Positions 1 to 10,878 of a stretch of DNA of 10,878 nt are shown piece after piece (position 1 is the stretch's first letter; each line of letters starts with the position of its first letter). The translations under genes and the position numbers were made by a program. Origin of the DNA: a virus (Duplodnaviria > Heunggongvirae > Uroviricota > Caudoviricetes); the IMG/VR virus record IMGVR_UViG_2908567220_000005. One strand, 5' to 3'. The notes beneath the pieces are model-generated. The model saw nothing but the letters and a program-made list of their open reading frames with translations, was not told where the DNA came from and made no database searches.

Positions 1-378
1 CTAACATGCGCCGCTTTTTTTAACCCTTCGCAGATCCCGCCTTGCTTGCATTGAAACGGCTCTCGCTAATCTCAGCTCAAGCCATGCGATTCTGTCGGCA
101 TGTAGCCCCATGAGTCCGTTAATCAATGTCATCTCGCGCCATTCTTCTGTTCCCGGCGTCGGATTATTCGCCAGTAATAGCCCGTATCTCTCAGCCAGCA
201 TGAGGTTTCTTGCACGATTTCGCACCAGCGGAGAAAGCGCCTCTCCCCCCTCAAATGGGAAGAATGCCCGCCGACTGCGTTCGCCATGTTTGACGGCATT
301 AGTATTGCCCAATGGTGCGCCTGCGCCTTTCCGCTTGCCACCCCATCCCGATCTTGATTGTTGGCTATTTTTTTTCAT
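1..378 (-). CDS. Hypothetical small basic protein (125 aa) with a Gly/Lys/Arg-rich N-terminus; possibly DNA-binding or packaging-associated
   Basis: Complete minus-strand ORF: ATG at 376..378, TAG stop at 1..3. N-terminus MKKNSQQSRSGWGGKRKGAGAPLGNTNAVKHG is AT-hook-like and resembles motifs I associate with some phage small terminase or DNA-binding proteins, but I cannot verify this. Only a weak Shine-Dalgarno. Confidence 0.45.
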   Translation of the reverse strand: MKKNSQQSRSGWGGKRKGAGAPLGNTNAVKHGERSRRAFFPFEGGEALSPLVRNRARNLMLAERYGLLLANNPTPGTEEWREMTLINGLMGLHADRIAWLELRLARAVSMQARRDLRRVKKSGAC

Positions 379-776: not shown

Positions 777-1088
777 TTACTGCGAACCATCGCCCCCGCT
801 GGTGGTCTGCCGTTGCCTCTTGCCGCCATTTAACCGGAAGGCGTTACCGTTCGGTTGCGCTATCCCCATGCGGTGTTGCGTTTCGGTGACAGCTTTATGC
901 AGGTCGCCAAAGTCCTCAACCTTCACGGGCGGGCGCTTCACGTTCTCCAGACACGTTTCACGGCGGCGCTTTATCCATTCCCGATCATCGTCCTCGGTGC
1001 ATAACAGCATGACTTCCATCCATCGCGCTGCGGCGCGTCGGTACAGCCCTTTTGCTTCTAGATCCTCGGCTTTACTGTCGTTTACCAT
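777..1088 (-). CDS. PerC-family-like transcriptional regulator (103 aa)
   Basis: ATG at 1086..1088 preceded by a strong SD (GGGGGAGATAAAC then ATG on the minus strand); TAA stop at 777..779. N-terminal motif AEDLEAKGLYRRAAARWMEVM matches my recollection of the PerC-family signature; not verified by search. Confidence 0.55.
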   Translation of the reverse strand: MVNDSKAEDLEAKGLYRRAAARWMEVMLLCTEDDDREWIKRRRETCLENVKRPPVKVEDFGDLHKAVTETQHRMGIAQPNGNAFRLNGGKRQRQTTSGGDGSQ

Positions 1089-1301
1089 GTTTATCTCCCC
1101 CAGAATGGCGTTTCATCGTCGAATGGTGGGCGTTGGTCAAAATCATCAGGGGTATTATATAACTCCCATCCCGGCGCGGATTGTGTTGCGTGGCCTCCTG
1201 TGTGCCTGTAGCCTGGCTGATTCCGGTAATACTGCGGAGTTAGGTCTACCGGCATAGCTTACCCGTGGAGAAATGAATCATCGAATGAGTTTGGTCGGGA
1301 G

Positions 1302-1973
1302 TTATTCCACCAGCAAAAATGGCGTTGCCCGGTCTATGACGTTGATGCCAATTAACGAGCCAACATTTCGACCATTCACAATGCTATCCCGTTCAAGCAA
1401 ATGCGCTATTTTTTCTACTTCATACCAGTATTGAGCCATGAGGGCTTTGGTCTTTTCAACGAGTTTAGAAAGCATTAACTCCCTGTTAATTCGCTTATCT
1501 GTAGCGCAGATTAAATCGAGCATGTCATTTACGTTAGCCATGTCATAGCGATGAGGTAGCGAATACTTTTTGTTGAAAATATCGTTGTTTTCGTAAAGGG
1601 CTTCGCTTACTGGTCCGGCGAGGGATACAAAAGCGGCCTTTTTTGCATCGCGCTTTATACCATCCGCATAGTAACGTATGAAAGGGATAACTTTACCATT
1701 CTGCCCAACTACACCAGATTTACTATCCCGCAAACGCCCGAGATCGTGGCTGTGAATTATGCTGTGTTTAACAACGCCCAAACACTTGGCCTCATGTACA
1801 TGTTCGCCAGCAACGTAACCGTATTCATCCATAACGGCGATAACCTGTATATCTAAGCGAATAAGCCATGCAGCTACTGCATGTCCCGCTTCGTGGAATG
1901 CTACACATCGTTTACCATCACCTATCCAGTTATAGAACATTTCATGCTCATATATCTGGTGAATGGCGCCCAT
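1302..1973 (-). CDS. Stand-alone FtsH-like (peptidase M41-type) zinc metalloprotease domain protein, 223 aa, no AAA+ ATPase module
   Basis: ATG at 1971..1973 overlaps the upstream gene's TAA stop (TAATG coupling). Intact HEXXH motif in VAFHEAGHAVAAW, as in FtsH (HEAGHA). Downstream segments (FVSLAGPVSEALYENND and the helical C-terminus ANVNDMLDLICATDKRINRELMLSKLVEKTKALMAQYWYEVEKIAHLL) parallel the FtsH protease domain. The ORF is too short to hold an ATPase domain, and no Walker A is present. Confidence 0.7.
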   Translation of the reverse strand: MGAIHQIYEHEMFYNWIGDGKRCVAFHEAGHAVAAWLIRLDIQVIAVMDEYGYVAGEHVHEAKCLGVVKHSIIHSHDLGRLRDSKSGVVGQNGKVIPFIRYYADGIKRDAKKAAFVSLAGPVSEALYENNDIFNKKYSLPHRYDMANVNDMLDLICATDKRINRELMLSKLVEKTKALMAQYWYEVEKIAHLLERDSIVNGRNVGSLIGINVIDRATPFLLVE

Positions 1974-2146
1974 TACGCGCCCTCGCTTGCCAGTGAGGCC
2001 AGCGCCTTATCCATTAATCCCCGAGCAATTTCGTGGATCGTTGGCGCAACTCCTACCTCTGATTTTTTACGCTGCTCCTCCTGAATTTTCTTTATCGCTT
2101 CCATTTGCTTCTCACTTATCAATACCGGCTTTACTGAAATAGCCAT
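1973..2146 (-). CDS. Small ribbon-helix-helix-like protein (57 aa), candidate DNA-binding partner/antitoxin/repressor for the downstream protease
   Basis: ATG at 2144..2146 with a strong SD (AAGGGG about 5 nt upstream). The ORF track's longer 66-aa version begins at a TTG with no SD. Sequence MAISVKPVLISEKQMEAIKKIQEEQRKKSEVGVAPTIHEIARGLMDKAL has a beta-strand/helix/helix pattern typical of RHH (CopG/Arc-like) proteins. Stop overlaps the start of the protease gene. Confidence 0.55.
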   Translation of the reverse strand: MAISVKPVLISEKQMEAIKKIQEEQRKKSEVGVAPTIHEIARGLMDKALASLASEGA

Positions 2147-2245
2147 AACGCCCCTTAGAACTGTATAAAACAACAGTTATTATAGTTTCACAAATAGCAA
2201 TATTTATCACCGTAATTGCAAAATATGAAACAAATAGCACAAAAA
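2147..2245 (-). promoter_or_regulatory. Candidate promoter/operator of the RHH-protease operon inside an AT-rich stretch
   Basis: Exact TATAAT on the minus strand at 2179..2184, about 30 nt upstream of the ATG. Direct 10-bp repeat ACAAATAGCA at 2190..2199 and 2230..2239 flanks the -35 area and is a plausible operator for the RHH protein. No convincing -35 hexamer found. The AT-rich stretch 2161..2260 may double as the origin's DNA-unwinding element. Confidence 0.3.
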
Positions 2246-2313
2246 AATGCCGCCGCTCAGTAGCTGGTGGCATCGTTCTGTGTGTCAAGTTTTGACAAGT
2301 TTCGTTTTAAGCT

Positions 2314-2343: not shown

Positions 2344-2349
2344 TAATAT

Positions 2350-2591
2350 CCCTACCAATCCCTACTAACTGGCTCATGCCACGAATGGCAAGGCTTTCAG
2401 ACTGGTAGGCATTCAATTTTGTTGCCCTACATAACCCTACTTATCCCTACTAAATCACTTCAACGGCATTTTACTGCCTGTTTTATTTGGTAGGGATATG
2501 TAGGGATAAGTAGGGATAAAAATATATATCCCTACCTAGTTTAAAGCCTTGCTACGTCTGGCCTCGTTTCGTTTTTAGTAGGGCAGTAGGG
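2350..2591. repeat. Iteron array (CCCTAC / GTAGGG core, about 11 copies), putative replication origin (ori/crr-like) for the adjacent primase-helicase
   Basis: CCCTAC at 2350..2355 and 2360..2365. Three copies in 10-bp phase at 2425..2430, 2435..2440 and 2445..2450. Three inverted copies GTAGGGATA in 10-bp phase at 2490..2498, 2500..2508 and 2510..2518. CCCTAC at 2530..2535. GTAGGG at 2578..2583 and 2586..2591. The array sits immediately 3' of the primase stop (2613..2615). Confidence 0.6.
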
Positions 2592-2612
2592 ATAAGTGCC
2601 GCCGTAAAAGTT

Positions 2613-5054
2613 TCAATCATCACTCTGCCCGCTCTCCACACCGTAAGCGCGTGGCATGAACTCCTCAGCCTTCTCGTTATAGCCAACGTTGGTTTGCGCT
2701 CTGCCGTTAATGCTTCTCGTCAGGTAGCTGGCTCGGTACTCTTTTGCTGCTGATTTTATGGCGCGTGAAAACTTATTGACGGAAAGCGGTTTACCCAAAC
2801 CGTGATACTCCATAAACGCCAGATAAAGATGATAAAGATACGTCCTCGGCTCTGGCTGGCCTGCCCATGTACCTCCGCCCATCATCATGCCTTTGGGTTC
2901 GTTCATGAAAAAAAGCGTCGCACACATATCGACAACCGGATCCGTGCCGCGTTTAACCTCTAGCGCCTCCTGCGAATCGCGCTGCTCTAGTAATAGTGCC
3001 TTTGCTTTGTTCTGGTCGGCAAAGGTGGTTAGCAGGTGGCGGATAATCACCGGGATTTCTCGCCTGATTTTTGCGGTTAAATCCGGGTCTTTGTCTGCGT
3101 CTGATACCGGGTTATTAAACGGGAATATCACGCGGCGGCGGGCAATGCCCCCGTTTCGCTCCGTGAATGTCATCGGCTCGTTATTGGTTGCCATAACAAC
3201 GGCATTTATCACGGTTGTGAACTGCTTTTCATATTTCCCATCAATCTCTACCGGATCGCCGCCCGTAATGGCTTTAATCCCCGCACCCTCTCCAACATAG
3301 CGGGTCTGGTCAGGCATAATAATCAGGCTTTTTCCTACGAACTGCGCCCGTCCCCGTGCGGTGTCCAGCGTCATCATGCTACCGCTGGCGGTGTTGTGTT
3401 CACCTGCCAGCGTGGTTGCTATGCTGCTGAATACGGATTTCCCACTGCCGCCCTCGCCAGTTATCTCAATGAATAGCTGCCAGTCGTGACGCTTCGCCAG
3501 CACCATAAACAAGGCTGCTTTGATACGCTCGGCCTTATGATGGTCGCCAGCCGTTGCATGATTCAGCCAACGGGTAAAATTGGGGGCGCTGGTGGTAATA
3601 TTTTCCCCCGGCGCTGGCGGGGTGTAGGTGATCCCATTGTGGTTCATCAGCCAGTTACCCGGCGAATGGGCGGAAAACGTCTGCGTAGCGAGGTCATAAA
3701 CGCCGTTATCAAAACCAATCAGATCCCCGCTCCGCTCACCAATTACCGGTATTTGCAGCTTCATGGTTGCGACAACCGATTTAATCCCCTTTTCGGTGTA
3801 GTGGGCTTCGTGCTCGTCGAAAATTGCCACCATAACCCTTTCTAATTCGCTGCCTGGTAGCTTCACCCATACGCCAGATTCGTAGCAGTAAACAGTGCCA
3901 CTATCAGGGTTAACCGCCAACATATCCCATCGAGATGAAAGCAACCGCGCTTTCTGGCTGGCTGCCATTTGTGCAATATCTCCGACATCGGCTTTACGGC
4001 GGGATTTACCGCCGTCAATGGCTTGCAATCGCGGTTTCACGGCTTCCCCTTGAATCTGGTACATCGAATCGTTAAACGCAGCCGTAGCGACTTCCAGCCC
4101 GTTTTGCTGGCGGTAGTCGTCCCAGTCGGCTTTGTAGTCTGTCGGCGGCAGCGCCACCCAGCCAGCCACGGATAAGGCGGCTTTCTCTGCGGCATCTTTG
4201 CCCGTGTTCGCCTGTTCGTCCTGCTGGTGGTCGTTATCTGCGGCAATGATAATCTGCACGGCTGGATATATCCGGCGCATCACTTCGGCAACGGGTAGCA
4301 GGTTGCCCGCGTCAATTGCTGCCACTGCCAGCGCGTCCGGGCGCATCAGGTGAACTGAAAGGGCCGTCGCCAGCCCCTCGGCAATTAAAACGCTCTGCGG
4401 CGATTCTGGCGCGTTTACGGCGTGATATGCCCCGCGCTTTGCTGAACCTGTCAGGAGTCGTTTATCTCCCTGCGGCGTGATGGTCTGCGCCGCCACTACT
4501 GCGCCGGATTCATCCACCAGCGGCAGGAGTAGCGAACCATCAGACATAACCGGGTAATTAAACCCGGTCAGCCCTTTTGATTGCAGGTAATCAGATTCGC
4601 CCTGTGTGACACTCTGGCGCATTCCGGCATACAGACGGGCAAACGTAGCCCTTCGCTGCTCTGCGTCCTCTGCTGCCTGTTTCTGGCGCTCCTGCTCACG
4701 CTGCTGGCGGTCAGCTTCCAGTTGCTCTCTTCTATGGCTCGCTGCCACCGGGTCGGTTTGCGCTGCCCGGTAATCAATACCCAGCACGTCAGCGGCAAGC
4801 TGTGCCGCCTCCGTAGTGTCGCAGTTGTTAACCCGCTTGATTAAATCCAGCCCGTCACCAGCGCCACACTGGTTGCAGATAAAGCTACCGCGCCCGTTGT
4901 CGTCGAATCTGAAACGGTCTTTTCCACCACATGCAGGGCATGGAGAATGGCGGCGCGATGAATCAGGAACGTCGATAGACAGGCCAGCCAGCACATAAGG
5001 CCATTTACCAGCGGCGGCGGTGGTCACTTCGCGGATAAGGTCGATATTACGCAT
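2613..5054 (-). CDS. P4 alpha-type bifunctional DNA primase / helicase (813 aa)
   Basis: ATG at 5052..5054 with SD GAGGGAG; TGA stop at 2613..2615. N-terminal Cys4 zinc-finger (CPACGGKDRFRFDDNGRGSFICNQCG), a central Toprim-like acidic region (VLIAEGLATA ... IIIAADNDH), and a C-terminal P-loop NTPase with Walker A (EITGEGGSGKSV). Size and layout match P4 alpha-like primases, followed by iterons. Confidence 0.9.
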   Translation of the reverse strand: MRNIDLIREVTTAAAGKWPYVLAGLSIDVPDSSRRHSPCPACGGKDRFRFDDNGRGSFICNQCGAGDGLDLIKRVNNCDTTEAAQLAADVLGIDYRAAQTDPVAASHRREQLEADRQQREQERQKQAAEDAEQRRATFARLYAGMRQSVTQGESDYLQSKGLTGFNYPVMSDGSLLLPLVDESGAVVAAQTITPQGDKRLLTGSAKRGAYHAVNAPESPQSVLIAEGLATALSVHLMRPDALAVAAIDAGNLLPVAEVMRRIYPAVQIIIAADNDHQQDEQANTGKDAAEKAALSVAGWVALPPTDYKADWDDYRQQNGLEVATAAFNDSMYQIQGEAVKPRLQAIDGGKSRRKADVGDIAQMAASQKARLLSSRWDMLAVNPDSGTVYCYESGVWVKLPGSELERVMVAIFDEHEAHYTEKGIKSVVATMKLQIPVIGERSGDLIGFDNGVYDLATQTFSAHSPGNWLMNHNGITYTPPAPGENITTSAPNFTRWLNHATAGDHHKAERIKAALFMVLAKRHDWQLFIEITGEGGSGKSVFSSIATTLAGEHNTASGSMMTLDTARGRAQFVGKSLIIMPDQTRYVGEGAGIKAITGGDPVEIDGKYEKQFTTVINAVVMATNNEPMTFTERNGGIARRRVIFPFNNPVSDADKDPDLTAKIRREIPVIIRHLLTTFADQNKAKALLLEQRDSQEALEVKRGTDPVVDMCATLFFMNEPKGMMMGGGTWAGQPEPRTYLYHLYLAFMEYHGLGKPLSVNKFSRAIKSAAKEYRASYLTRSINGRAQTNVGYNEKAEEFMPRAYGVESGQSDD

Positions 5055-5066
5055 TGTGTCGCTCCC

Positions 5067-5693
5067 TCAGTGCGCCGCTGGCATTTCAGGCAAGCCGTTT
5101 TCATTCAGATCAGCAATGAATCCATCATGCAGCTCTGCCAGCGTTTCACGTCCGAACGGGGTCAGCTCGCCGCGCTCCGTGTCGATCATGGCCTGATAAA
5201 AAACAATGGCGTTCGCCGTTCCCTGCTCAATGCCGTAGCGCTCAATCATTGCGCCTTCCATGTTGTTAGCCATCGCCAGACGTTCCGCGAACGGGTAAAC
5301 CACAATCCCCGCCGTGCCATTGGAGTAAATCGCTACTTTTGACGTTGTGCCGTCAGCCTCCGTGACGGTGGTTGTGCCGTTTTCGCGCTTCATCTCAGAA
5401 ATGAACGTCGCAGCAATCAGCCAGCGCCACATAGTGACGTTATGCTGCGCGGTGAAGTCGAACCAGCCACGCGCCCCGCCATCAGCAACGGCAAAATGGA
5501 TGGCGTATCCGATATCTGGCTTATCGTCGTACTCTCCGGCATCAAGTCGGTTTACTGCGCTCAGATAGTCGATAATGGCAACCTGCTCATATCCCCCGGC
5601 ATCATTGCGGGTCATGATATTGACGCCGTGCGGTGTGGCTTCGGCGTGTAATAAGTCGGCATTTCCCGATTTAATGGTCGGTGCGTTGCTCAT
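5067..5693 (-). CDS. Hypothetical protein (208 aa), co-transcribed immediately upstream of the primase
   Basis: ATG at 5691..5693 with SD GGAGGG; start overlaps the upstream ORF's stop (ATGA). No motif I recognise. Confidence 0.6.
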   Translation of the reverse strand: MSNAPTIKSGNADLLHAEATPHGVNIMTRNDAGGYEQVAIIDYLSAVNRLDAGEYDDKPDIGYAIHFAVADGGARGWFDFTAQHNVTMWRWLIAATFISEMKRENGTTTVTEADGTTSKVAIYSNGTAGIVVYPFAERLAMANNMEGAMIERYGIEQGTANAIVFYQAMIDTERGELTPFGRETLAELHDGFIADLNENGLPEMPAAH

Positions 5694-5953
5694 GCGCTGC
5701 CCTCCGCATCAATTCTGGCTATATCGACAATCGTCAGGACTTTACTCAGCCAGCAATACGCGATGGCTGCTTGCTCAACTTCGAGGAGTGGTAATAAATC
5801 GGTCATAACGTGAGCCAGCCCATTGCGGGCGCGGGTCATGCGTTCTGCTGTTCGGTCTGCCAGCGTAAAATCATCCGGGTATGATTCTTTGCGAGATAGC
5901 ATCGCTTCGGCTTCCAGCTCTGCCGGGTGGCGGTAGATGGTATTTATGTTCAT
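5690..5953 (-). CDS. Hypothetical protein (87 aa)
   Basis: ATG at 5951..5953 with SD GAGGTGG; ATGA overlap with both neighbours. No recognisable motif. Confidence 0.5.
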   Translation of the reverse strand: MNINTIYRHPAELEAEAMLSRKESYPDDFTLADRTAERMTRARNGLAHVMTDLLPLLEVEQAAIAYCWLSKVLTIVDIARIDAEGSA

Positions 5954-6129
5954 GCTGCCACCTCACGAATGCGGGTAATCTGGATGTGGGAAAGGCGTTC
6001 ATTTCTGGCCTGATTTAGCGCCTCAGCTTTGGCGCTGATCGCGCTGCGGGCGTCAACGATATAAACGAACTCGACTAATTCGCCGCTCCGGGCGGTGGCG
6101 CATCCTGCAACACGGAAGTAATTAAGCAT
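5950..6129 (-). CDS. Hypothetical protein (59 aa from the ATG at 6127..6129; the 69-aa track ORF starts at a TTG at 6159)
   Basis: The ATG at 6127..6129 overlaps the last codons of the upstream Icd-like ORF (ATGCTTAA), suggesting translational coupling. Stop overlaps the next start. No recognisable motif. Confidence 0.4.
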   Translation of the reverse strand: MLNYFRVAGCATARSGELVEFVYIVDARSAISAKAEALNQARNERLSHIQITRIREVAA

Positions 6130-6313
6130 GTGCGCCCCCTGTGCGAATACGTCCGGCAAAAAAGCAAACGTGATCCCGCGCCAGAATGCGGCGGGCTTCC
6201 TGCTCAGTTTCTGCGGCGATATGGTGAATTTTGGCGGTAATTGTCGGCATGTCGCGGCGAACGGCTGCGATTAACCAGATAAATTGTGGATTTTGGGTAG
6301 GGGTAGTAGCCAT
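6122..6313 (-). CDS. Icd-like small protein (host cell division inhibitor Icd family-like), 63 aa
   Basis: ATG at 6311..6313 preceded by SD AGAGG with an 8-nt spacer; TAA stop at 6122..6124. Sequence MATTPTQNPQFIWLIAAVRRDMPTITAKIHHIAAETEQEARRILARDHVCFFAGRIRTGGAHA resembles my recollection of Icd-like proteins in P4-like prophages. It forms the C-terminal part of the 257-aa track ORF, which I consider spurious upstream of this start. Confidence 0.5.
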   Translation of the reverse strand: MATTPTQNPQFIWLIAAVRRDMPTITAKIHHIAAETEQEARRILARDHVCFFAGRIRTGGAHA

Positions 6314-8595: not shown

Positions 8596-9546
8596 TTAAC
8601 TATCCACTTTGCCATTTGCCGCAGATCGTAGATGTTTAAGAATTACATCTTCATTAGTTATCATAAGTGGTGGAACTTCGTCTAAATGACGAACAAGACA
8701 GTCACGCCACTTCTCAGGGCTTATTTCTTTCCTTTCTCCCCTGCATTCATTTGGATACTTACTAAGTATATAAATTGCAGATTTTAATAGTTTCTCCCTA
8801 TTGACTGCGTACCGTTCGGCACGTTTATTAACTTTTAGCGTATTTATATCATTGGATAACTTGTTTGCGGATGGTTTGTGCATGGGGCTGTCATAAATAT
8901 ATTTTCCTCCATTTATAAGAAGATTGTATTCATAGTCAGTTATATACATTTTATTTCGGCTTATTTCATACCAGCCGTCAATATAAAAAGCTCCGATTTC
9001 ATAATTATTCGATTTGCTAAACTCGTCACATCTCGGAGGCATCAGTTCGCATACAGAGATCTCCCAATCATCCCATTCTGATAGCTCCCGCTCATCGTTA
9101 TCTATGAACGCAGACGGAATTGCTAATAGACCGTTCCATCTTTCGATATCTCTTTCATCCTTCCCAACATTGTATCGCTCTATAACTGAGAAATGTTCTG
9201 ATTTGTATGAAAACCTCATAAAATACATATGGTTATCGCTATTTTTATAATCAAGCGGTGATAAGCCATATGATTCGAGATTATCTGCCTCATTGCTCAG
9301 ATCAAGAAGATAATTCTCATGTACTGCTTTTGTATCTATATGAAAAATACTATCTGTTTCAACTTTAAGTAATTCTGGATCGGCATCTTCATTTTTGGGG
9401 TAATGGTAAAACAATTCAATAGGTGGAATTTTTATACATATTTCTAAAACCCCAATTGCTGCATAGTGTATTAAATCGGATACTTCACATCCGGCCAGTT
9501 TGGCTGCTTTATCCAAAGAATAATATTTATGCGCAGGTAATTTCAT
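8596..9546 (-). CDS. Hypothetical AT-rich cargo protein (316 aa) between integrase and alpA; possible N-terminal HTH-like region
   Basis: ATG at 9544..9546 with SD GAGAGGAAAG, only 18 bp after the integrase stop. Clearly lower GC than flanking genes (by eye roughly one-third GC versus about one-half). N-terminus YYSLDKAAKLAGCEVSDLIHYAAIGVLE looks HTH-like; the remainder is acidic and aromatic-rich with no motif I recognise. Confidence 0.65.
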   Translation of the reverse strand: MKLPAHKYYSLDKAAKLAGCEVSDLIHYAAIGVLEICIKIPPIELFYHYPKNEDADPELLKVETDSIFHIDTKAVHENYLLDLSNEADNLESYGLSPLDYKNSDNHMYFMRFSYKSEHFSVIERYNVGKDERDIERWNGLLAIPSAFIDNDERELSEWDDWEISVCELMPPRCDEFSKSNNYEIGAFYIDGWYEISRNKMYITDYEYNLLINGGKYIYDSPMHKPSANKLSNDINTLKVNKRAERYAVNREKLLKSAIYILSKYPNECRGERKEISPEKWRDCLVRHLDEVPPLMITNEDVILKHLRSAANGKVDS

Positions 9547-9564: not shown

Positions 9565-10818
9565 TCATGCTCTGATTGGCGTTACGTTGTAGTCTTTTCC
9601 GCTTTCCAGTGCCACCAGCAAATCACACCACTGCGCCAGCGCCGCTTTACGCTCATCAAAATACTGGTGACGGTTATAGATACCCTCCACACCTTTAATT
9701 TTGTGATTAAGGCATCTTTCTGCGACTACCGGATCAACGCCCAGCGCTGCTAAATGAGTACGTGCGGTGCGTCGGAAGTCGTGAATCGTGAAATTAGGCA
9801 CATCCGGCATTTCGGCGCGAACCTTAGCCAGTGCTACGGGCAGGGTGCTTTCCTGAATATGGGGGATCATGCGGTTTTGCATCTTTCTGGCTGGCAGTAC
9901 CCATGCGCTGTTGCATGAGAACGTTTTAAGCTCTCTCAGCCATTCGACGGCTGGCGGTGCTAATGGGATGTCTATAGCGTCGCCGTTTTTGCTGCGTTCC
10001 TCTGGCAAGCGCCATACGGCTTTATCAAAATCGAACTCCTCCCAGCGGGCGGCGCATAACTCCATTTTGCGGACGCATAACGCTAACAGTAATTTGAACG
10101 TGATTTCGTTCTGGCGACTGAATCCCTTAGCCGTGCGCATGGCTTTGAATAGCTGGATTAACTCATCGCGGGTTAACCAGCGGTCACGGGCAACTTCTTT
10201 CCCTCCGGCGTCTGCCACCTCAAAGGCTGAACAGGGGTTAATCTCTAGCGCGTGCCGTTTGATTCCGTAGTCGAATATGCGGCGCGTCCATCTCAGCACG
10301 TCCGTTGCTATGGTCGGCGCTCCACGGTCAACAATACCTTTCAGCATGTCATCGATATGGCGCGGTTTCACGTCCTCTACCTTCATGCTGCCAATGCAGG
10401 GGTTTATATCTTTGTCGATACGGCGGCGGAGTATATCGGGGTGCTTCCAGCGCGGGAGGATCTGACGCTCAAAGTATTCAGCGGCAAGCTCTGAAACGCG
10501 CATAGCGTTCTTCTCTGCTTCCATCTTCGCTAGTGCTTCGGTTTTGCGCTTCTGCTTCTCTCCTGCAACGTCATAGCCCAGCGCAACGCGAGCCGATAGC
10601 TCTTTGGCTGTCTCTCTGGCCTTTGATAGTGATAGCTCGCTATACGAACCAATTAGCATGGCGCGGGACTTCCCTGCGAGTTTATAGCGGAATCTCCATG
10701 TGGGGGTTTTGTCGGCTTCACGGTAACGTAGGTATAAACCGTTACCGTCTGCCCGCCCCTCGAATCGCTCTCCGCTCTTAATCCATGCGCGGATCTGCAT
10801 GTCTGTTAGTTTTGGCAT
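9565..10818 (-). CDS. int: P4-family tyrosine integrase (site-specific recombinase)
   Basis: Preferred start is the ATG at 10816..10818 (MPKLTDMQIRAW...), giving the typical P4-type N-terminal arm-binding region (GNGLYLRYR ... WRFRYK). The track ORF extends in frame to an ATG at the window edge (10876..10878). C-terminal catalytic domain has HDFRRT (HxxR) and a conserved Tyr near the C-terminus (GIYNRHQY). TGA stop at 9565..9567. Confidence 0.9.
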   Translation of the reverse strand: MPKLTDMQIRAWIKSGERFEGRADGNGLYLRYREADKTPTWRFRYKLAGKSRAMLIGSYSELSLSKARETAKELSARVALGYDVAGEKQKRKTEALAKMEAEKNAMRVSELAAEYFERQILPRWKHPDILRRRIDKDINPCIGSMKVEDVKPRHIDDMLKGIVDRGAPTIATDVLRWTRRIFDYGIKRHALEINPCSAFEVADAGGKEVARDRWLTRDELIQLFKAMRTAKGFSRQNEITFKLLLALCVRKMELCAARWEEFDFDKAVWRLPEERSKNGDAIDIPLAPPAVEWLRELKTFSCNSAWVLPARKMQNRMIPHIQESTLPVALAKVRAEMPDVPNFTIHDFRRTARTHLAALGVDPVVAERCLNHKIKGVEGIYNRHQYFDERKAALAQWCDLLVALESGKDYNVTPIRA

Positions 10819-10848
10819 TTTGCGAATATCCAAACTTTGAATAGGGGG

Positions 10849-10872
10849 TGTACCCAAAGCAATGTACCCAAA
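10849..10872. repeat. Direct 10-bp repeat TGTACCCAAA x2 upstream of the integrase start; candidate arm-type or regulatory sites
   Basis: TGTACCCAAA at 10849..10858 and 10863..10872, separated by 4 bp, in the integrase 5' region at the window edge. Confidence 0.25.
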
Positions 10873-10878
10873 CCTCAT

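What the first reader, a model, noticed from the sequence alone, without database searches (positions are those of the whole stretch)
1302..2260. Two-gene cassette: small RHH-like protein plus an orphan FtsH-type zinc-metalloprotease domain lacking any AAA+ ATPase
The 223-aa protein keeps an intact HEAGH zinc-binding motif and downstream helices that parallel the FtsH (M41) protease domain, yet it is far too short to hold an ATPase module and has no Walker A. It is translationally coupled (TAATG overlap) to a 57-aa RHH-like protein. The promoter region carries a direct 10-bp repeat (ACAAATAGCA x2), which suggests autoregulation. The pair sits just past the replication origin, apparently at lower GC than the core, where cargo typically accumulates. 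I know of no described defence or regulatory system built from a stand-alone M41-like protease with an RHH partner. Plausible roles are an anti-phage or abortive-infection effector with an RHH antitoxin or sensor, an ImmR/ImmA-style repressor-protease induction switch, or a protease aimed at helper-phage or host proteins.
Basis: partly seen in the sequence, partly recalled or inferred. Interest (0 to 1): 0.78.

Follow-up and report, generated by a model that had tools for sequence, protein, structure and literature searches.

The report
Stand-alone FtsH-like protease in phage satellite
A phage satellite integrated in an E. coli-type chromosome carries, as a swappable cargo gene, a small soluble zinc protease that looks like the protease half of FtsH without its ATP motor. 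The small gene in front of it is a generic leader gene of that cargo slot rather than a dedicated partner, and the protease's target is unknown.

Summary

The "two-gene system" reading fails. The small gene and its promoter occur in roughly 550 of 5,426 complete E. coli genomes without the protease. There, and in Serratia and Erwinia, it heads operons of P22-like ejection or tape-measure-like proteins. The protease occurs intact without the small gene in three independent arrangements.

Window 1201-2300 is a replaceable module in the slot between ori and perC of an EcCIMP1-like PICI, and its insertion truncated ssb. No PADLOC model, phage record, plasmid record or paper matches it. Short stand-alone M41 proteins are abundant (at least 2,987 clusters) and uncharacterised.

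Best reading: an ATP-independent M41-clan peptidase carried as satellite cargo, probably acting in satellite-phage-host conflict. Its function is untested. Interest is moderate.

The parts
1201..2300 (-). Replaceable cargo module of the satellite's post-ori slot: terminator, promoter region, small leader gene, M41-like peptidase gene and about 100 bp of 3' flank.
   Evidence: blastn against strain MB46, which has the same backbone with ssb cargo, shows homology only at 795-1200 and 2301-2800. PT62 has a 327-bp extra insertion exactly at 2301/2302.
1302..1973 (-). 223-aa soluble stand-alone M41-clan zinc metallopeptidase domain: HEAGH at aa 27-31, putative third zinc ligand D144, no AAA+ module.
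1973..2146 (-). 57-aa small basic protein (pI 8.1), the conserved leader gene of the slot. Predicted extended N-terminus plus two helices; RHH-compatible but unproven.
   Evidence: RefSeq annotates the same 174-nt gene. Homologues occur in Enterobacterales only and all are 'hypothetical'. Alignment A2 shows invariant ARGL.DKAL. AF2 pLDDT is 74 with helices 12-28 and 37-56. dN/dS is 0.10-0.43. No Pfam, PDB or Foldseek support.
1971..1975 (-). TAATG stop/start overlap between the small gene and the peptidase gene.
   Evidence: Read. In Erwinia the small gene's end coordinate is likewise the next gene's start coordinate, although the cargo is unrelated.
1998..2302 (-). Segment shared at 93-97% nucleotide identity with PICIs that carry ejection-protein operons: terminator, promoter and the first ~50 codons of the small gene.
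   Evidence: L002, L003, L021. The proteins differ only in the last 3-8 residues.
2179..2184 (-). Perfect TATAAT, a candidate -10 element of the slot promoter. No good -35 at 16-18 bp.
   Evidence: Read. Conserved in E. coli relatives. Not called by the consensus scan.
2190..2199 (.). Proximal copy of the 10-bp direct repeat (ACAAATAGCA; TGCTATTTGT on the coding strand), just upstream of the -10.
   Evidence: It reads TGCGATTTGT in most relatives.
2230..2239 (.). Distal copy of the 10-bp direct repeat, 40 bp upstream of the proximal copy and abutting the terminator's T-tract.
2241..2282 (-). Intrinsic terminator: strong hairpin followed by U7. It closes the primase/ori transcription unit and forms the upstream edge of the module.
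   Evidence: RNA fold gives -21.7 kcal/mol, z = -5.9, with 0 of 200 shuffles as stable. Conserved in relatives.
1091..1255 (-). 54-aa ORF whose last 34 residues are the C-terminal tail of the satellite's SSB: a remnant left when the module replaced the 5' part of ssb.
   Evidence: 33 of 34 residues identical to MB46 SSB aa 123-156. Homology with MB46 resumes at window 1200.
2346..2597 (.). Iteron field (GTAGGGATA-type repeats in both orientations): the satellite replication origin downstream of the primase gene.
   Evidence: repeat families D1-D3, inverted pairs I1-I21. Primase domains.
777..1088 (-). PerC-family gene, the conserved downstream flank of the slot.
   Evidence: Pfam PerC, E 2e-29. 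Homologous flank in MB46.

Best explanation
Window 1201-2300 is a roughly 1.1-kb exchangeable module in the accessory slot between the replication origin and perC of an EcCIMP1-like phage-inducible chromosomal island.

**Module parts.** It starts with an intrinsic terminator and a promoter region with a perfect -10 element. Next comes a 57-aa small basic protein. This small gene is the resident leader gene of the slot in hundreds of related satellites. It may be a DNA-binding regulator, possibly RHH.

**Cargo.** In this copy the cargo is a single gene for a 223-aa soluble zinc metallopeptidase. The protein is homologous to the protease domain of FtsH (MEROPS M41) but has no AAA+ unfoldase and no membrane anchor.

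**How it likely works.**
- Shown: the catalytic HEXXH and the Asp ligand are intact, and the gene is under purifying selection. It is therefore most likely an active, ATP-independent peptidase.
- Inferred: lacking an unfoldase, it must cut exposed or disordered segments of a specific target, or borrow a host unfoldase.
- Inferred, weakly: the gene is confined to satellites, is swapped by recombination, and shares the slot with virion ejection-protein sets and ssb. Its target is therefore most likely a phage or host protein that matters during helper-phage infection (interference, defence or helper manipulation).

It does not work as an obligate pair with the small protein.
For: **Fold and family**
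- phmmer aligns AFG3L2 over aa 20-209.
- All top Foldseek hits are FtsH, AFG3L2 or YME1.
- A profile of 70 stand-alone relatives including the window protein hits FtsH protease domains over their full length at E 1.8e-20.
- A distant relative, P0042, passes the Pfam PF01434 threshold at 59.8 bits.

**Active site and selection**
- H27, E28, H31 and D144 are invariant in 22 family members and at least 90% conserved in the 70-sequence set.
- The protein has no Walker A and no hydrophobic segment, and dN/dS is 0.18-0.24.

**Module and context**
- Module boundaries and the ssb remnant.
- PICI context: int, AlpA, AntA, Ash, P4-type primase and PerC.
- Same family and attachment site as EcCIMP1, whose helper is the phage Kapi1 (PMC11773190).

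**Independence of the two genes**
- The small gene occurs without the protease.
- The protease occurs without the small gene.
- dS of the 5' part of the small gene against the yicC-type copy is 1.8-2.8, while dS for the peptidase gene is 0.23-0.35. This places a recombination breakpoint inside the small gene near position 2053.

**Distribution**
- The peptidase gene is in 53 of 5,426 complete E. coli genomes, single copy and chromosomal.
- It is absent from the phage and plasmid collections.
Against: - No activity, target or phenotype is known; the biological role is inferred from location only.
- The window protein itself is below the Pfam M41 threshold (20.7 vs 29.9 bits).
- The AF2 model is only moderate (pLDDT 64; residues 41-72 and both termini below 50).
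- The slot mostly carries virion (ejection) genes or ssb rather than recognised defence genes. The prior for defence is therefore weaker than in the classical P4 or PICI hotspots.
- The small gene and the peptidase do travel together in two different satellite backbones. Some functional link, such as regulation or translational coupling, cannot be excluded.
- Distant stand-alone M41 proteins sit in heterogeneous contexts that are partly non-mobile. The family as a whole is not conflict-specific.
Confidence: 0.55

Rival explanations
1. Dedicated two-gene toxin-antitoxin or abortive-infection system. The protease is a toxin or effector and the RHH-like protein is its antitoxin, sensor or autorepressor.
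For: - TAATG overlap and a shared promoter.
- The pair co-occurs in two unrelated satellite backbones, the window type and the yicC-type in E2348/69 and Salmonella.
- A direct repeat flanks the -10 region.
Against: - The small gene with the same promoter heads unrelated cargo in about 550 E. coli genomes and in Serratia, Raoultella and Erwinia.
- An intact 223-aa peptidase follows an 18-aa chimeric mini-ORF with no small gene in QDFD216.
- The small gene is deleted in Dickeya, where peptidase dN/dS is 0.18.
- An unrelated 55-aa gene precedes the 49%-identical homologue.
- There is no PADLOC hit.
- The repeats are not conserved beyond the background level of the region.
Confidence: 0.08
2. ImmR/ImmA-style induction switch. 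The small protein is a repressor, and the metalloprotease cleaves it (or the helper prophage repressor) to trigger the satellite or helper cycle.
For: - There is a metalloprotease next to a small putative DNA-binding protein.
- In the yicC-type satellite the operon lies next to int.
- M78 (ImmA-like) proteases also occur as cargo in related satellites.
Against: - The fold is M41, not M78/COG2856.
- The peptidase is present in only about 1% of E. coli genomes, whereas the small gene is in about 10%. It therefore cannot be the family's master switch.
- The small gene sits at the head of a late or accessory operon, far from the int-alpA regulatory end.
- In EcCIMP1, alpA is the master regulator (PMC11773190).
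Confidence: 0.07
3. Virion- or helper-directed role tied to the slot's usual content. The peptidase processes or degrades helper virion or ejection proteins, or is itself packaged and delivered with the DNA like the ejection proteins it replaces. Either would favour satellite transfer or counter recipient defences.
For: - The same promoter and leader gene normally drive P22-like ejection proteins or tape-measure-like proteins.
- The experimentally shown helper of this PICI family is the phage Kapi1 (PMC11773190); that Kapi1 is a P22-like podovirus is from my own knowledge.
- The start of the cargo gene overlaps the end of the leader gene, as it does in Erwinia with unrelated cargo.
Against: - The argument is purely positional.
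- ssb, a replication protein, also occupies the slot.
- There is no similarity to any phage protein and no packaging signal is known.
Confidence: 0.2
4. Non-functional remnant: the 3' fragment of a disrupted ftsH-like gene, or a decaying pseudo-protease.
For: - It is short relative to FtsH.
- It scores below the Pfam gathering threshold.
Against: - The same 223-aa length and N-terminus occur in E. coli, Salmonella, Citrobacter, Enterobacter, Shigella and Dickeya.
- dN/dS is 0.18-0.24.
- The catalytic residues are invariant.
- At least 2,987 clusters of similarly short stand-alone M41 proteins exist.
- The upstream DNA is the small gene and ori, not AAA+ coding sequence.
Confidence: 0.02

Closest known systems
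FtsH / m-AAA / i-AAA proteases (MEROPS M41), protease domain (e.g. PDB 2di4, 4ww0, 6nyy)
   Different: It has no transmembrane anchor and no AAA+ unfoldase, so it cannot be ATP-dependent in cis. It is 223 aa against more than 600 aa. The family carries a conserved His-rich insert (H58, H60, H70, H74, H76) in the beta region. The window protein is below the Pfam threshold.
Uncharacterised short 'peptidase M41 family protein' / 'ATP-dependent Zn protease' entries in RefSeq and JGI (stand-alone PF01434 proteins, 155-260 aa)
   Same: Same architecture and conserved HEAGHA, AG..AE, D and W motifs. RefSeq already names the window's protein 'peptidase M41 family protein'.
   Different: The window subfamily is only 19-28% identical to them. 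It is restricted to Enterobacterales satellites, whereas the others sit in heterogeneous contexts. I found no experimental description of any of them.
ImmA/IrrE (M78, COG2856) anti-repressor proteases with ImmR/Xre partners
   Same: A small stand-alone HEXXH metalloprotease on a mobile element next to a small putative DNA-binding protein.
   Different: A different fold and clan. The partner is not an HTH repressor and is not obligatorily linked. True M78 proteins occur elsewhere in related satellites.
Variable cargo hotspots of phage satellites (P4 and PICI hotspots carrying anti-phage systems; from my knowledge of Rousset 2022 and Fillol-Salom 2022, not re-read here)
   Same: A discrete slot with conserved flanks in which unrelated cargo is exchanged by recombination; the cargo has lower GC.
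   Different: Here the slot's commonest cargo is virion ejection proteins or ssb, not recognised defence systems. The cargo has no PADLOC match.
EcCIMP1, a PICI of E. coli MP1 mobilised by phage Kapi1 (PMC11773190)
   Same: Same gene set (int, AlpA, antirepressor, Ash, primase, PerC) and, in strain PSS-12, the same proA-yagU region.
   Different: That paper describes no M41 peptidase or small leader gene. It mentions only two hypothetical proteins shared with Kapi1 that may be involved in morphogenesis.
Ribbon-helix-helix regulators (Arc, Mnt, CopG)
   Same: Size (57 aa), a basic N-terminal extended segment (VKPVLIS) followed by two helices, and a position at the head of an operon next to repeats.
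   Different: No sequence, profile or fold-search support. The inter-helix loop (8 residues) is longer than usual.

Membership tests
Peptidase family M41 (FtsH-type protease domain) | HEXXH zinc-binding/catalytic motif on the first helix | tested here: met
   HEAGH at aa 27-31. It is invariant in 22 family members. H, G and H are invariant and E is at least 90% conserved in 70 distant relatives.
Peptidase family M41 (FtsH-type protease domain) | Third zinc ligand: an Asp on a downstream helix | tested here: met
   D144 is invariant and at least 90% conserved. Its profile column aligns with the Asp of FtsH 'GAENDL' in 2di4. Identifying that Asp as the metal ligand rests on my knowledge of FtsH structures.
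Peptidase family M41 (FtsH-type protease domain) | Fold of the FtsH protease domain | tested here: met
   [not shown]
Peptidase family M41 (FtsH-type protease domain) | Score above the Pfam PF01434 gathering threshold | tested here: not met
   20.7 bits against 29.9, covering aa 21-40 only. It is met by relatives (P0042 at 59.8 bits) and by precomputed hits for P0007 and many others.
FtsH proper (ATP-dependent membrane protease) | N-terminal transmembrane anchor plus AAA+ ATPase module (Walker A/B) fused to the protease | tested here: not met
   223 aa, no Walker A, maximum 19-residue hydropathy 1.41. No AAA+ Pfam hit. The upstream DNA is the small gene and ori.
FtsH proper (ATP-dependent membrane protease) | Hexameric assembly and processive degradation | not testable with these tools
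   Only monomer prediction was available.
Ribbon-helix-helix DNA-binding proteins | Beta-strand followed by two helices | tested here: inconclusive
   AF2 gives residues 1-11 extended, then helices 12-28 and 37-56, pLDDT 74. The strand would form only in a dimer.
Ribbon-helix-helix DNA-binding proteins | Detectable sequence, profile or fold similarity to RHH families | tested here: not met
   No Pfam hit at E up to 10. There is no RHH among PDB hits for the sequence or the profile. Foldseek returned 0 hits.
Ribbon-helix-helix DNA-binding proteins | Binding to repeated operator sites | not testable with these tools
   The repeats exist, but P is about 0.03, they are imperfect in relatives, and they are absent in the yicC-type context.
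Type II toxin-antitoxin / two-gene abortive-infection pair | Obligate co-occurrence of the two genes | tested here: not met
   The small gene occurs without the peptidase in about 550 genomes. The peptidase occurs without the small gene in QDFD216, Dickeya and L006/L007.
Type II toxin-antitoxin / two-gene abortive-infection pair | Toxicity of one partner neutralised by the other | not testable with these tools
   Needs expression experiments.
ImmR/ImmA-type repressor-protease switch | M78/COG2856 protease domain paired with an HTH repressor it cleaves | tested here: not met
   The fold is M41. The partner has no HTH hit.
Catalogued anti-phage defence systems (PADLOC-DB v2.0.0) | Match to a defence-system protein model | tested here: not met
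   There is no hit for the peptidase, 10 distant relatives, or neighbouring cargo proteins. The only small-gene hit is a chance-level Cas11a match at E 0.015.
Phage-inducible chromosomal island (Gram-negative PICI, EcCIMP1-like) | int, alpA, primase-ori module, perC, about 10-12 kb, no capsid or lysis genes, integrated in the chromosome | tested here: met
   Pfam hits for AlpA, AntA, Ash, primase and PerC. The integrase (437 aa, 9565-10878) is identified from its sequence and RefSeq annotation of the syntenic gene in relatives. Iterons. Chromosomal insertion next to tRNA-Thr/proA in PSS-12. Comparison with PMC11773190. Mobilisation itself was not tested.

The most novel reading that the evidence does not exclude
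The 223-aa protein founds a functionally new class: a satellite-borne, ATP-independent FtsH-type peptidase that acts as a conflict effector. It would either destroy a helper or competitor phage (or host defence) protein, or be delivered with the virion like the ejection proteins that normally occupy its slot. It would also be the first handle on the function of several thousand uncharacterised stand-alone M41 peptidases.
Probability: 0.25. Interest if true: 0.7.

Novelty: new variant of a known kind. Interest (0 to 1): 0.45.

Why it matters
M41 proteases are textbook ATP-dependent machines. A conserved, selected, motor-less version confined to phage satellites implies a different way of choosing substrates and a role in satellite-phage-host conflict.

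If a target were found, it would add a protease-based mechanism to satellite biology. It would also give a first functional anchor for at least 2,987 database clusters of short stand-alone M41 proteins.

The work also shows that the "partner" gene is the conserved leader of an exchangeable slot. In hundreds of E. coli PICIs that slot carries P22-like ejection proteins. The satellite survey read here states that PICIs typically lack phage structural genes (PMC10085698), so this is a lead in its own right.

Tried and rejected
**Direct family and database searches**
- The Pfam, NCBIfam and PHROGs scans of the peptidase gave only a 20-residue HEXXH-helix match. They were insufficient alone, and were superseded by the profile and fold evidence.
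- A profile of the close family (A1) against PDB remained weak at E 1e-3. The link became strong only after adding distant stand-alone relatives (A4).
- tblastn against phages and plasmids found no homologue of either gene.
- The IMG/VR scan found nothing.
- The genome-contig scan was wasted. The HEAGHA pattern saturated on true FtsH genes and returned only 3 distant loci.

**RHH tests on the small protein**
- Pfam at E up to 10, PDB with the sequence and with the profile, Foldseek of the AF2 model, and hhalign against CopG and Arc were all negative.

**Operator idea**
- The 10-mer motif was searched in all loci. It is present only where the whole promoter segment is homologous, it mutates like its surroundings, and it is absent upstream of the yicC-type operon.

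**Literature**
- Searches combining M41, peptidase M41, FtsH-like lacking AAA, PICI with metalloprotease, and PICI with ejection protein found nothing relevant.
- The Tai paper (PMC11364771) mentions no protease.

**Other leads dropped**
- PADLOC gave no hits on neighbouring cargo: the 183-aa, 62-aa, 102-aa and 352-aa lipoprotein genes and the window's 316-aa ORF.
Full report
**Observation**

The window is a compact satellite read on the minus strand. It carries:
- an integrase (9565-10878);
- a low-GC 316-aa ORF;
- an AlpA-like gene, an AntA antirepressor and an Ash-like gene;
- a P4-family primase (2613-5054);
- an iteron field (2346-2597);
- then the finding, followed by PerC (777-1088).

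- The 223-aa ORF lies at 1973..1302(-) with HEAGH at residues 27-31 and no Walker A.
- A small ORF ends at 1973. Its ATG at 2146 gives 57 aa, is preceded by AAGGGG, and matches the RefSeq call of a 174-nt gene.
- The two genes share a TAATG overlap.
- ACAAATAGCA occurs twice, 40 bp apart, at 2190-2199 and 2230-2239.
- GC is 0.42-0.48 here against 0.52-0.60 over 2601-6200, the primase and adjacent replication genes.

The repeat is only marginally non-random. P is about 0.03 for a region of this size, and 1.4 such pairs are expected per window. In relatives it degrades to 8-9 matches of 10.

A strong intrinsic terminator lies directly upstream at 2241-2282 (-21.7 kcal/mol, z = -5.9, followed by U7). 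A perfect TATAAT sits at 2179-2184, although the consensus scan called no promoter.

**What the 223-aa protein is**

Direct family scans see only the HEXXH helix. Pfam M41 scores 20.7 bits against a threshold of 29.9, and NCBIfam FtsH gives E 0.008. Four stronger lines converge on the M41 protease domain.
1. phmmer against PDB aligns residues 20-209 collinearly with the protease domain of AFG3L2.
3. An exhaustive profile search found 177 relatives, almost all 150-280 aa and stand-alone. One of these, P0042, passes Pfam M41 at 59.8 bits. A profile of 70 such proteins including the window protein matches FtsH protease domains over their full length at E 1.8e-20.
4. H27, E28, H31 and D144 are invariant in the close family and at least 90% conserved across the 70. 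The D144 column falls on the FtsH Asp in 'GAENDL'. By my knowledge of FtsH structures, that Asp is the third zinc ligand.

The protein has no hydrophobic segment (maximum 1.41). dN/dS is 0.18-0.24 against copies in E. coli E2348/69, Salmonella and Dickeya. The same 223-aa length and N-terminus recur in six genera. It is therefore a genuine, selected, motor-less M41-clan peptidase, not a broken ftsH. RefSeq already labels it 'peptidase M41 family protein'.

**What the small protein is**

Homologues are confined to Enterobacterales and all are 'hypothetical'. The alignment shows a conserved VKPVLIS segment, a helix, then GVAPTIHEIARGLMDKAL. AF2 predicts an extended N-terminus and helices 12-28 and 37-56 at pLDDT 74. 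dN/dS is 0.10-0.43.

This shape is compatible with a ribbon-helix-helix monomer, but nothing confirms it. Pfam at E up to 10, PDB by sequence and by profile, Foldseek, and hhalign against CopG and Arc were all negative. 'RHH-like' remains a reasonable guess, not a finding.

**The pairing test**

- A megablast of the region showed that most of about 575 matching E. coli genomes match only window 1992-2302. That segment holds the terminator, the promoter and the first ~50 codons of the small gene, at 90-97% identity. Only 26 genomes match across the peptidase.
- In all five such loci inspected, the small gene is followed by P22-like ejection or injection genes: DUF2824, a gp7-sized gene, 'phage DNA ejection protein', and a lytic-transglycosylase/gp16-like gene.
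- The small proteins are identical for about 50 residues and differ only in the last 3-8.
- In Serratia the same leader precedes Inj_translocase and SLT/gp16-like genes.
- In Erwinia it precedes a 108-aa gene and a 1,050-aa tape-measure-like protein. The leader's end coordinate is the next gene's start coordinate, so coupling is not specific to the peptidase.
- In Raoultella it precedes a 605-aa protein.

Conversely, the peptidase exists without the small gene in three arrangements.
- **E. coli QDFD216.** An intact ssb is followed by an 18-aa chimeric mini-ORF (MVNDSKAE from perC plus ALASLASEGA from the small-gene tail), then TAATG and an intact 223-aa peptidase.
- **Dickeya.** The small gene is deleted, leaving MDTGCKVKPV fused to the peptidase.
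- **The 49%-identical lineage L006/L007.** The gene in front is an unrelated 55-aa charged protein, preceded by a 184-aa protein.

The pair does co-occur in a second backbone, a yicC-integrated satellite of E2348/69, O157-type strains and Salmonella. The order there is int, 183 aa, 62 aa, small gene, peptidase. However, the synonymous divergence of the small gene (dS 1.8-2.8) is far higher than that of the peptidase (0.23-0.35). Nucleotide homology also stops inside the small gene near position 2053. The small gene is therefore a resident recombination anchor, and the peptidase, together with the last ~10 codons of the leader, is the thing that moves.

**Module anatomy**

- Against strain MB46, which has the same backbone, homology runs over 795-1200 and 2301-2800. 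MB46 carries ssb plus a 100-aa gene instead.
- The window's 54-aa ORF at 1091-1255 is the C-terminal tail of that SSB, with 33 of 34 residues identical. Acquisition of the module therefore truncated ssb.
- PT62 has a further 327-bp insertion exactly at 2301/2302.
- The satellite belongs to the EcCIMP1 family. The paper (PMC11773190) shows that EcCIMP1 is mobilised by phage Kapi1. That Kapi1 is a P22-like podovirus is my own knowledge.

**How it most likely works**

Shown:
- an intact M41-type active site in a soluble 223-aa protein without an unfoldase;
- expression context as the second gene of the post-ori operon, behind a terminator, a -10 element and the leader gene;
- satellite-only distribution, in 53 of 5,426 complete E. 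coli genomes, single copy and chromosomal, with no copy in the phage or plasmid collections.

Inferred:
- It is an ATP-independent peptidase that must act on exposed or disordered segments or use a host unfoldase.
- Because it is exchangeable satellite cargo, its target is probably a phage or host protein relevant during helper infection.

I rate the identity and architecture as high confidence and the biological role as low confidence. A role tied to virion or ejection proteins is a serious rival, because that is what the slot usually encodes. Toxin-antitoxin, ImmR/ImmA-like and pseudogene readings are disfavoured by the tests above.

**Comparison with what is known, and novelty**

The protein is a member of the M41 clan by motif, third ligand and fold. 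It is not an FtsH, because it has no anchor and no AAA+ module. It fails the Pfam threshold itself.

Stand-alone short M41 proteins are numerous, with at least 2,987 clusters. Their contexts are heterogeneous. I found no paper describing their function or any M41-based defence system, and no PADLOC model.

The finding is therefore a new variant of a known protease kind sitting in a known kind of place, a satellite cargo slot. It is not a new two-gene system.

**Side observation**

Hundreds of E. coli PICIs carry their own P22-like ejection-protein operon behind the same leader gene. This may be of at least equal interest. [quoted passage not shown]

Noticed in passing
L002:5407-9156, L003:3803-9149, L021, L022, L023 (homologous to window 1998-2302 at their upstream end); Serratia L024:6001-10357: About 550 of 5,426 complete E. 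coli genomes carry PICI-like satellites in which the same promoter and small leader gene head an operon of P22-like DNA-ejection proteins (DUF2824, a gp7-sized gene, Inj_translocase/gp20-like, SLT plus gp16-like). Serratia shows the same. The satellite survey PMC10085698 says PICIs typically lack phage structural genes, so these satellites may bring their own ejection proteins.
   Followed up: partly
L028:6001-9665 (Erwinia); L026/L027:6001-8064 (Raoultella): In other genera the same small leader gene precedes a 108-aa gene plus a 1,050-aa TMP_3 tape-measure-like protein, or a 605-aa protein with a faint TMP_3 signal. The leader seems generally associated with long virion-internal or DNA-delivery proteins, so it could be an escort or chaperone rather than a regulator.
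   Followed up: partly
window 1091-1255 (-): The 54-aa ORF is a remnant of the satellite's ssb gene. Its last 34 residues are 97% identical to the C-terminus of MB46 SSB, including the acidic tail. The peptidase module insertion deleted the rest of ssb and a 100-aa gene.
   Followed up: yes
L030:4173-4240 (E. coli QDFD216): An 18-aa chimeric mini-ORF, MVNDSKAEALASLASEGA, joins the perC start to the small-gene tail and is followed by TAATG and an intact peptidase directly after an intact ssb. It is a recombination scar showing that the peptidase moves with only the last ~10 codons of the leader.
   Followed up: yes
L017:8092-8844, L005:9817-10570, L006:6197-6923: In other satellites the peptidase is preceded by a conserved 183/184-aa protein (50% identity between lineages) and a 55-62-aa highly charged protein. 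Neither has a Pfam, PHROG or PADLOC match. They are absent from the window and may be older partners of the peptidase.
   Followed up: partly
L008:8795-9853 (Dickeya); L031:2366-3424 (E. coli 2011C-4251): A 352-aa predicted lipoprotein (signal peptide ending in an LTGC or FTGC lipobox) follows the peptidase in two different contexts, at 69% identity. It has no family match. It may be a surface-exclusion-type cargo.
   Followed up: partly
window 8596-9546 (-): A 316-aa ORF sits between int and alpA in the lowest-GC part of the window (0.34-0.40). It has no Pfam or PADLOC hit. A same-length 951-nt (316-aa) gene sits between alpA and int in L003; their homology was not tested. It is likely another accessory cargo gene.
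   Followed up: partly
window 1302-1973 (-), residues 58-76 of the protein: A conserved His-rich stretch (H58 invariant; H60, H70, H74 and H76 at least 90% conserved) lies in the low-confidence region between the HEXXH helix and the helical bundle. It may be a second metal site or a regulatory loop absent from FtsH.
   Followed up: no
window 2283-2302: A tandem 10-bp repeat, TGTCAAGTTT/TGACAAGTTT, lies exactly at the upstream boundary of the module (2301/2302). This is where MB46 homology resumes and where PT62 has a 327-bp insertion. It may be a recombination hotspot or a binding site.
   Followed up: no
window 1-378 (-): A 125-aa ORF begins MKKNSQQSRSGWGGKRKGAGAPLGNTNAVKHG. It has no Pfam hit at E 1e-3, but proteins at a similar downstream position in L006 and L028 carry DUF5681. 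It may be a packaging-redirection or small-terminase-like gene of the satellite.
   Followed up: no
[not shown]
   Followed up: partly
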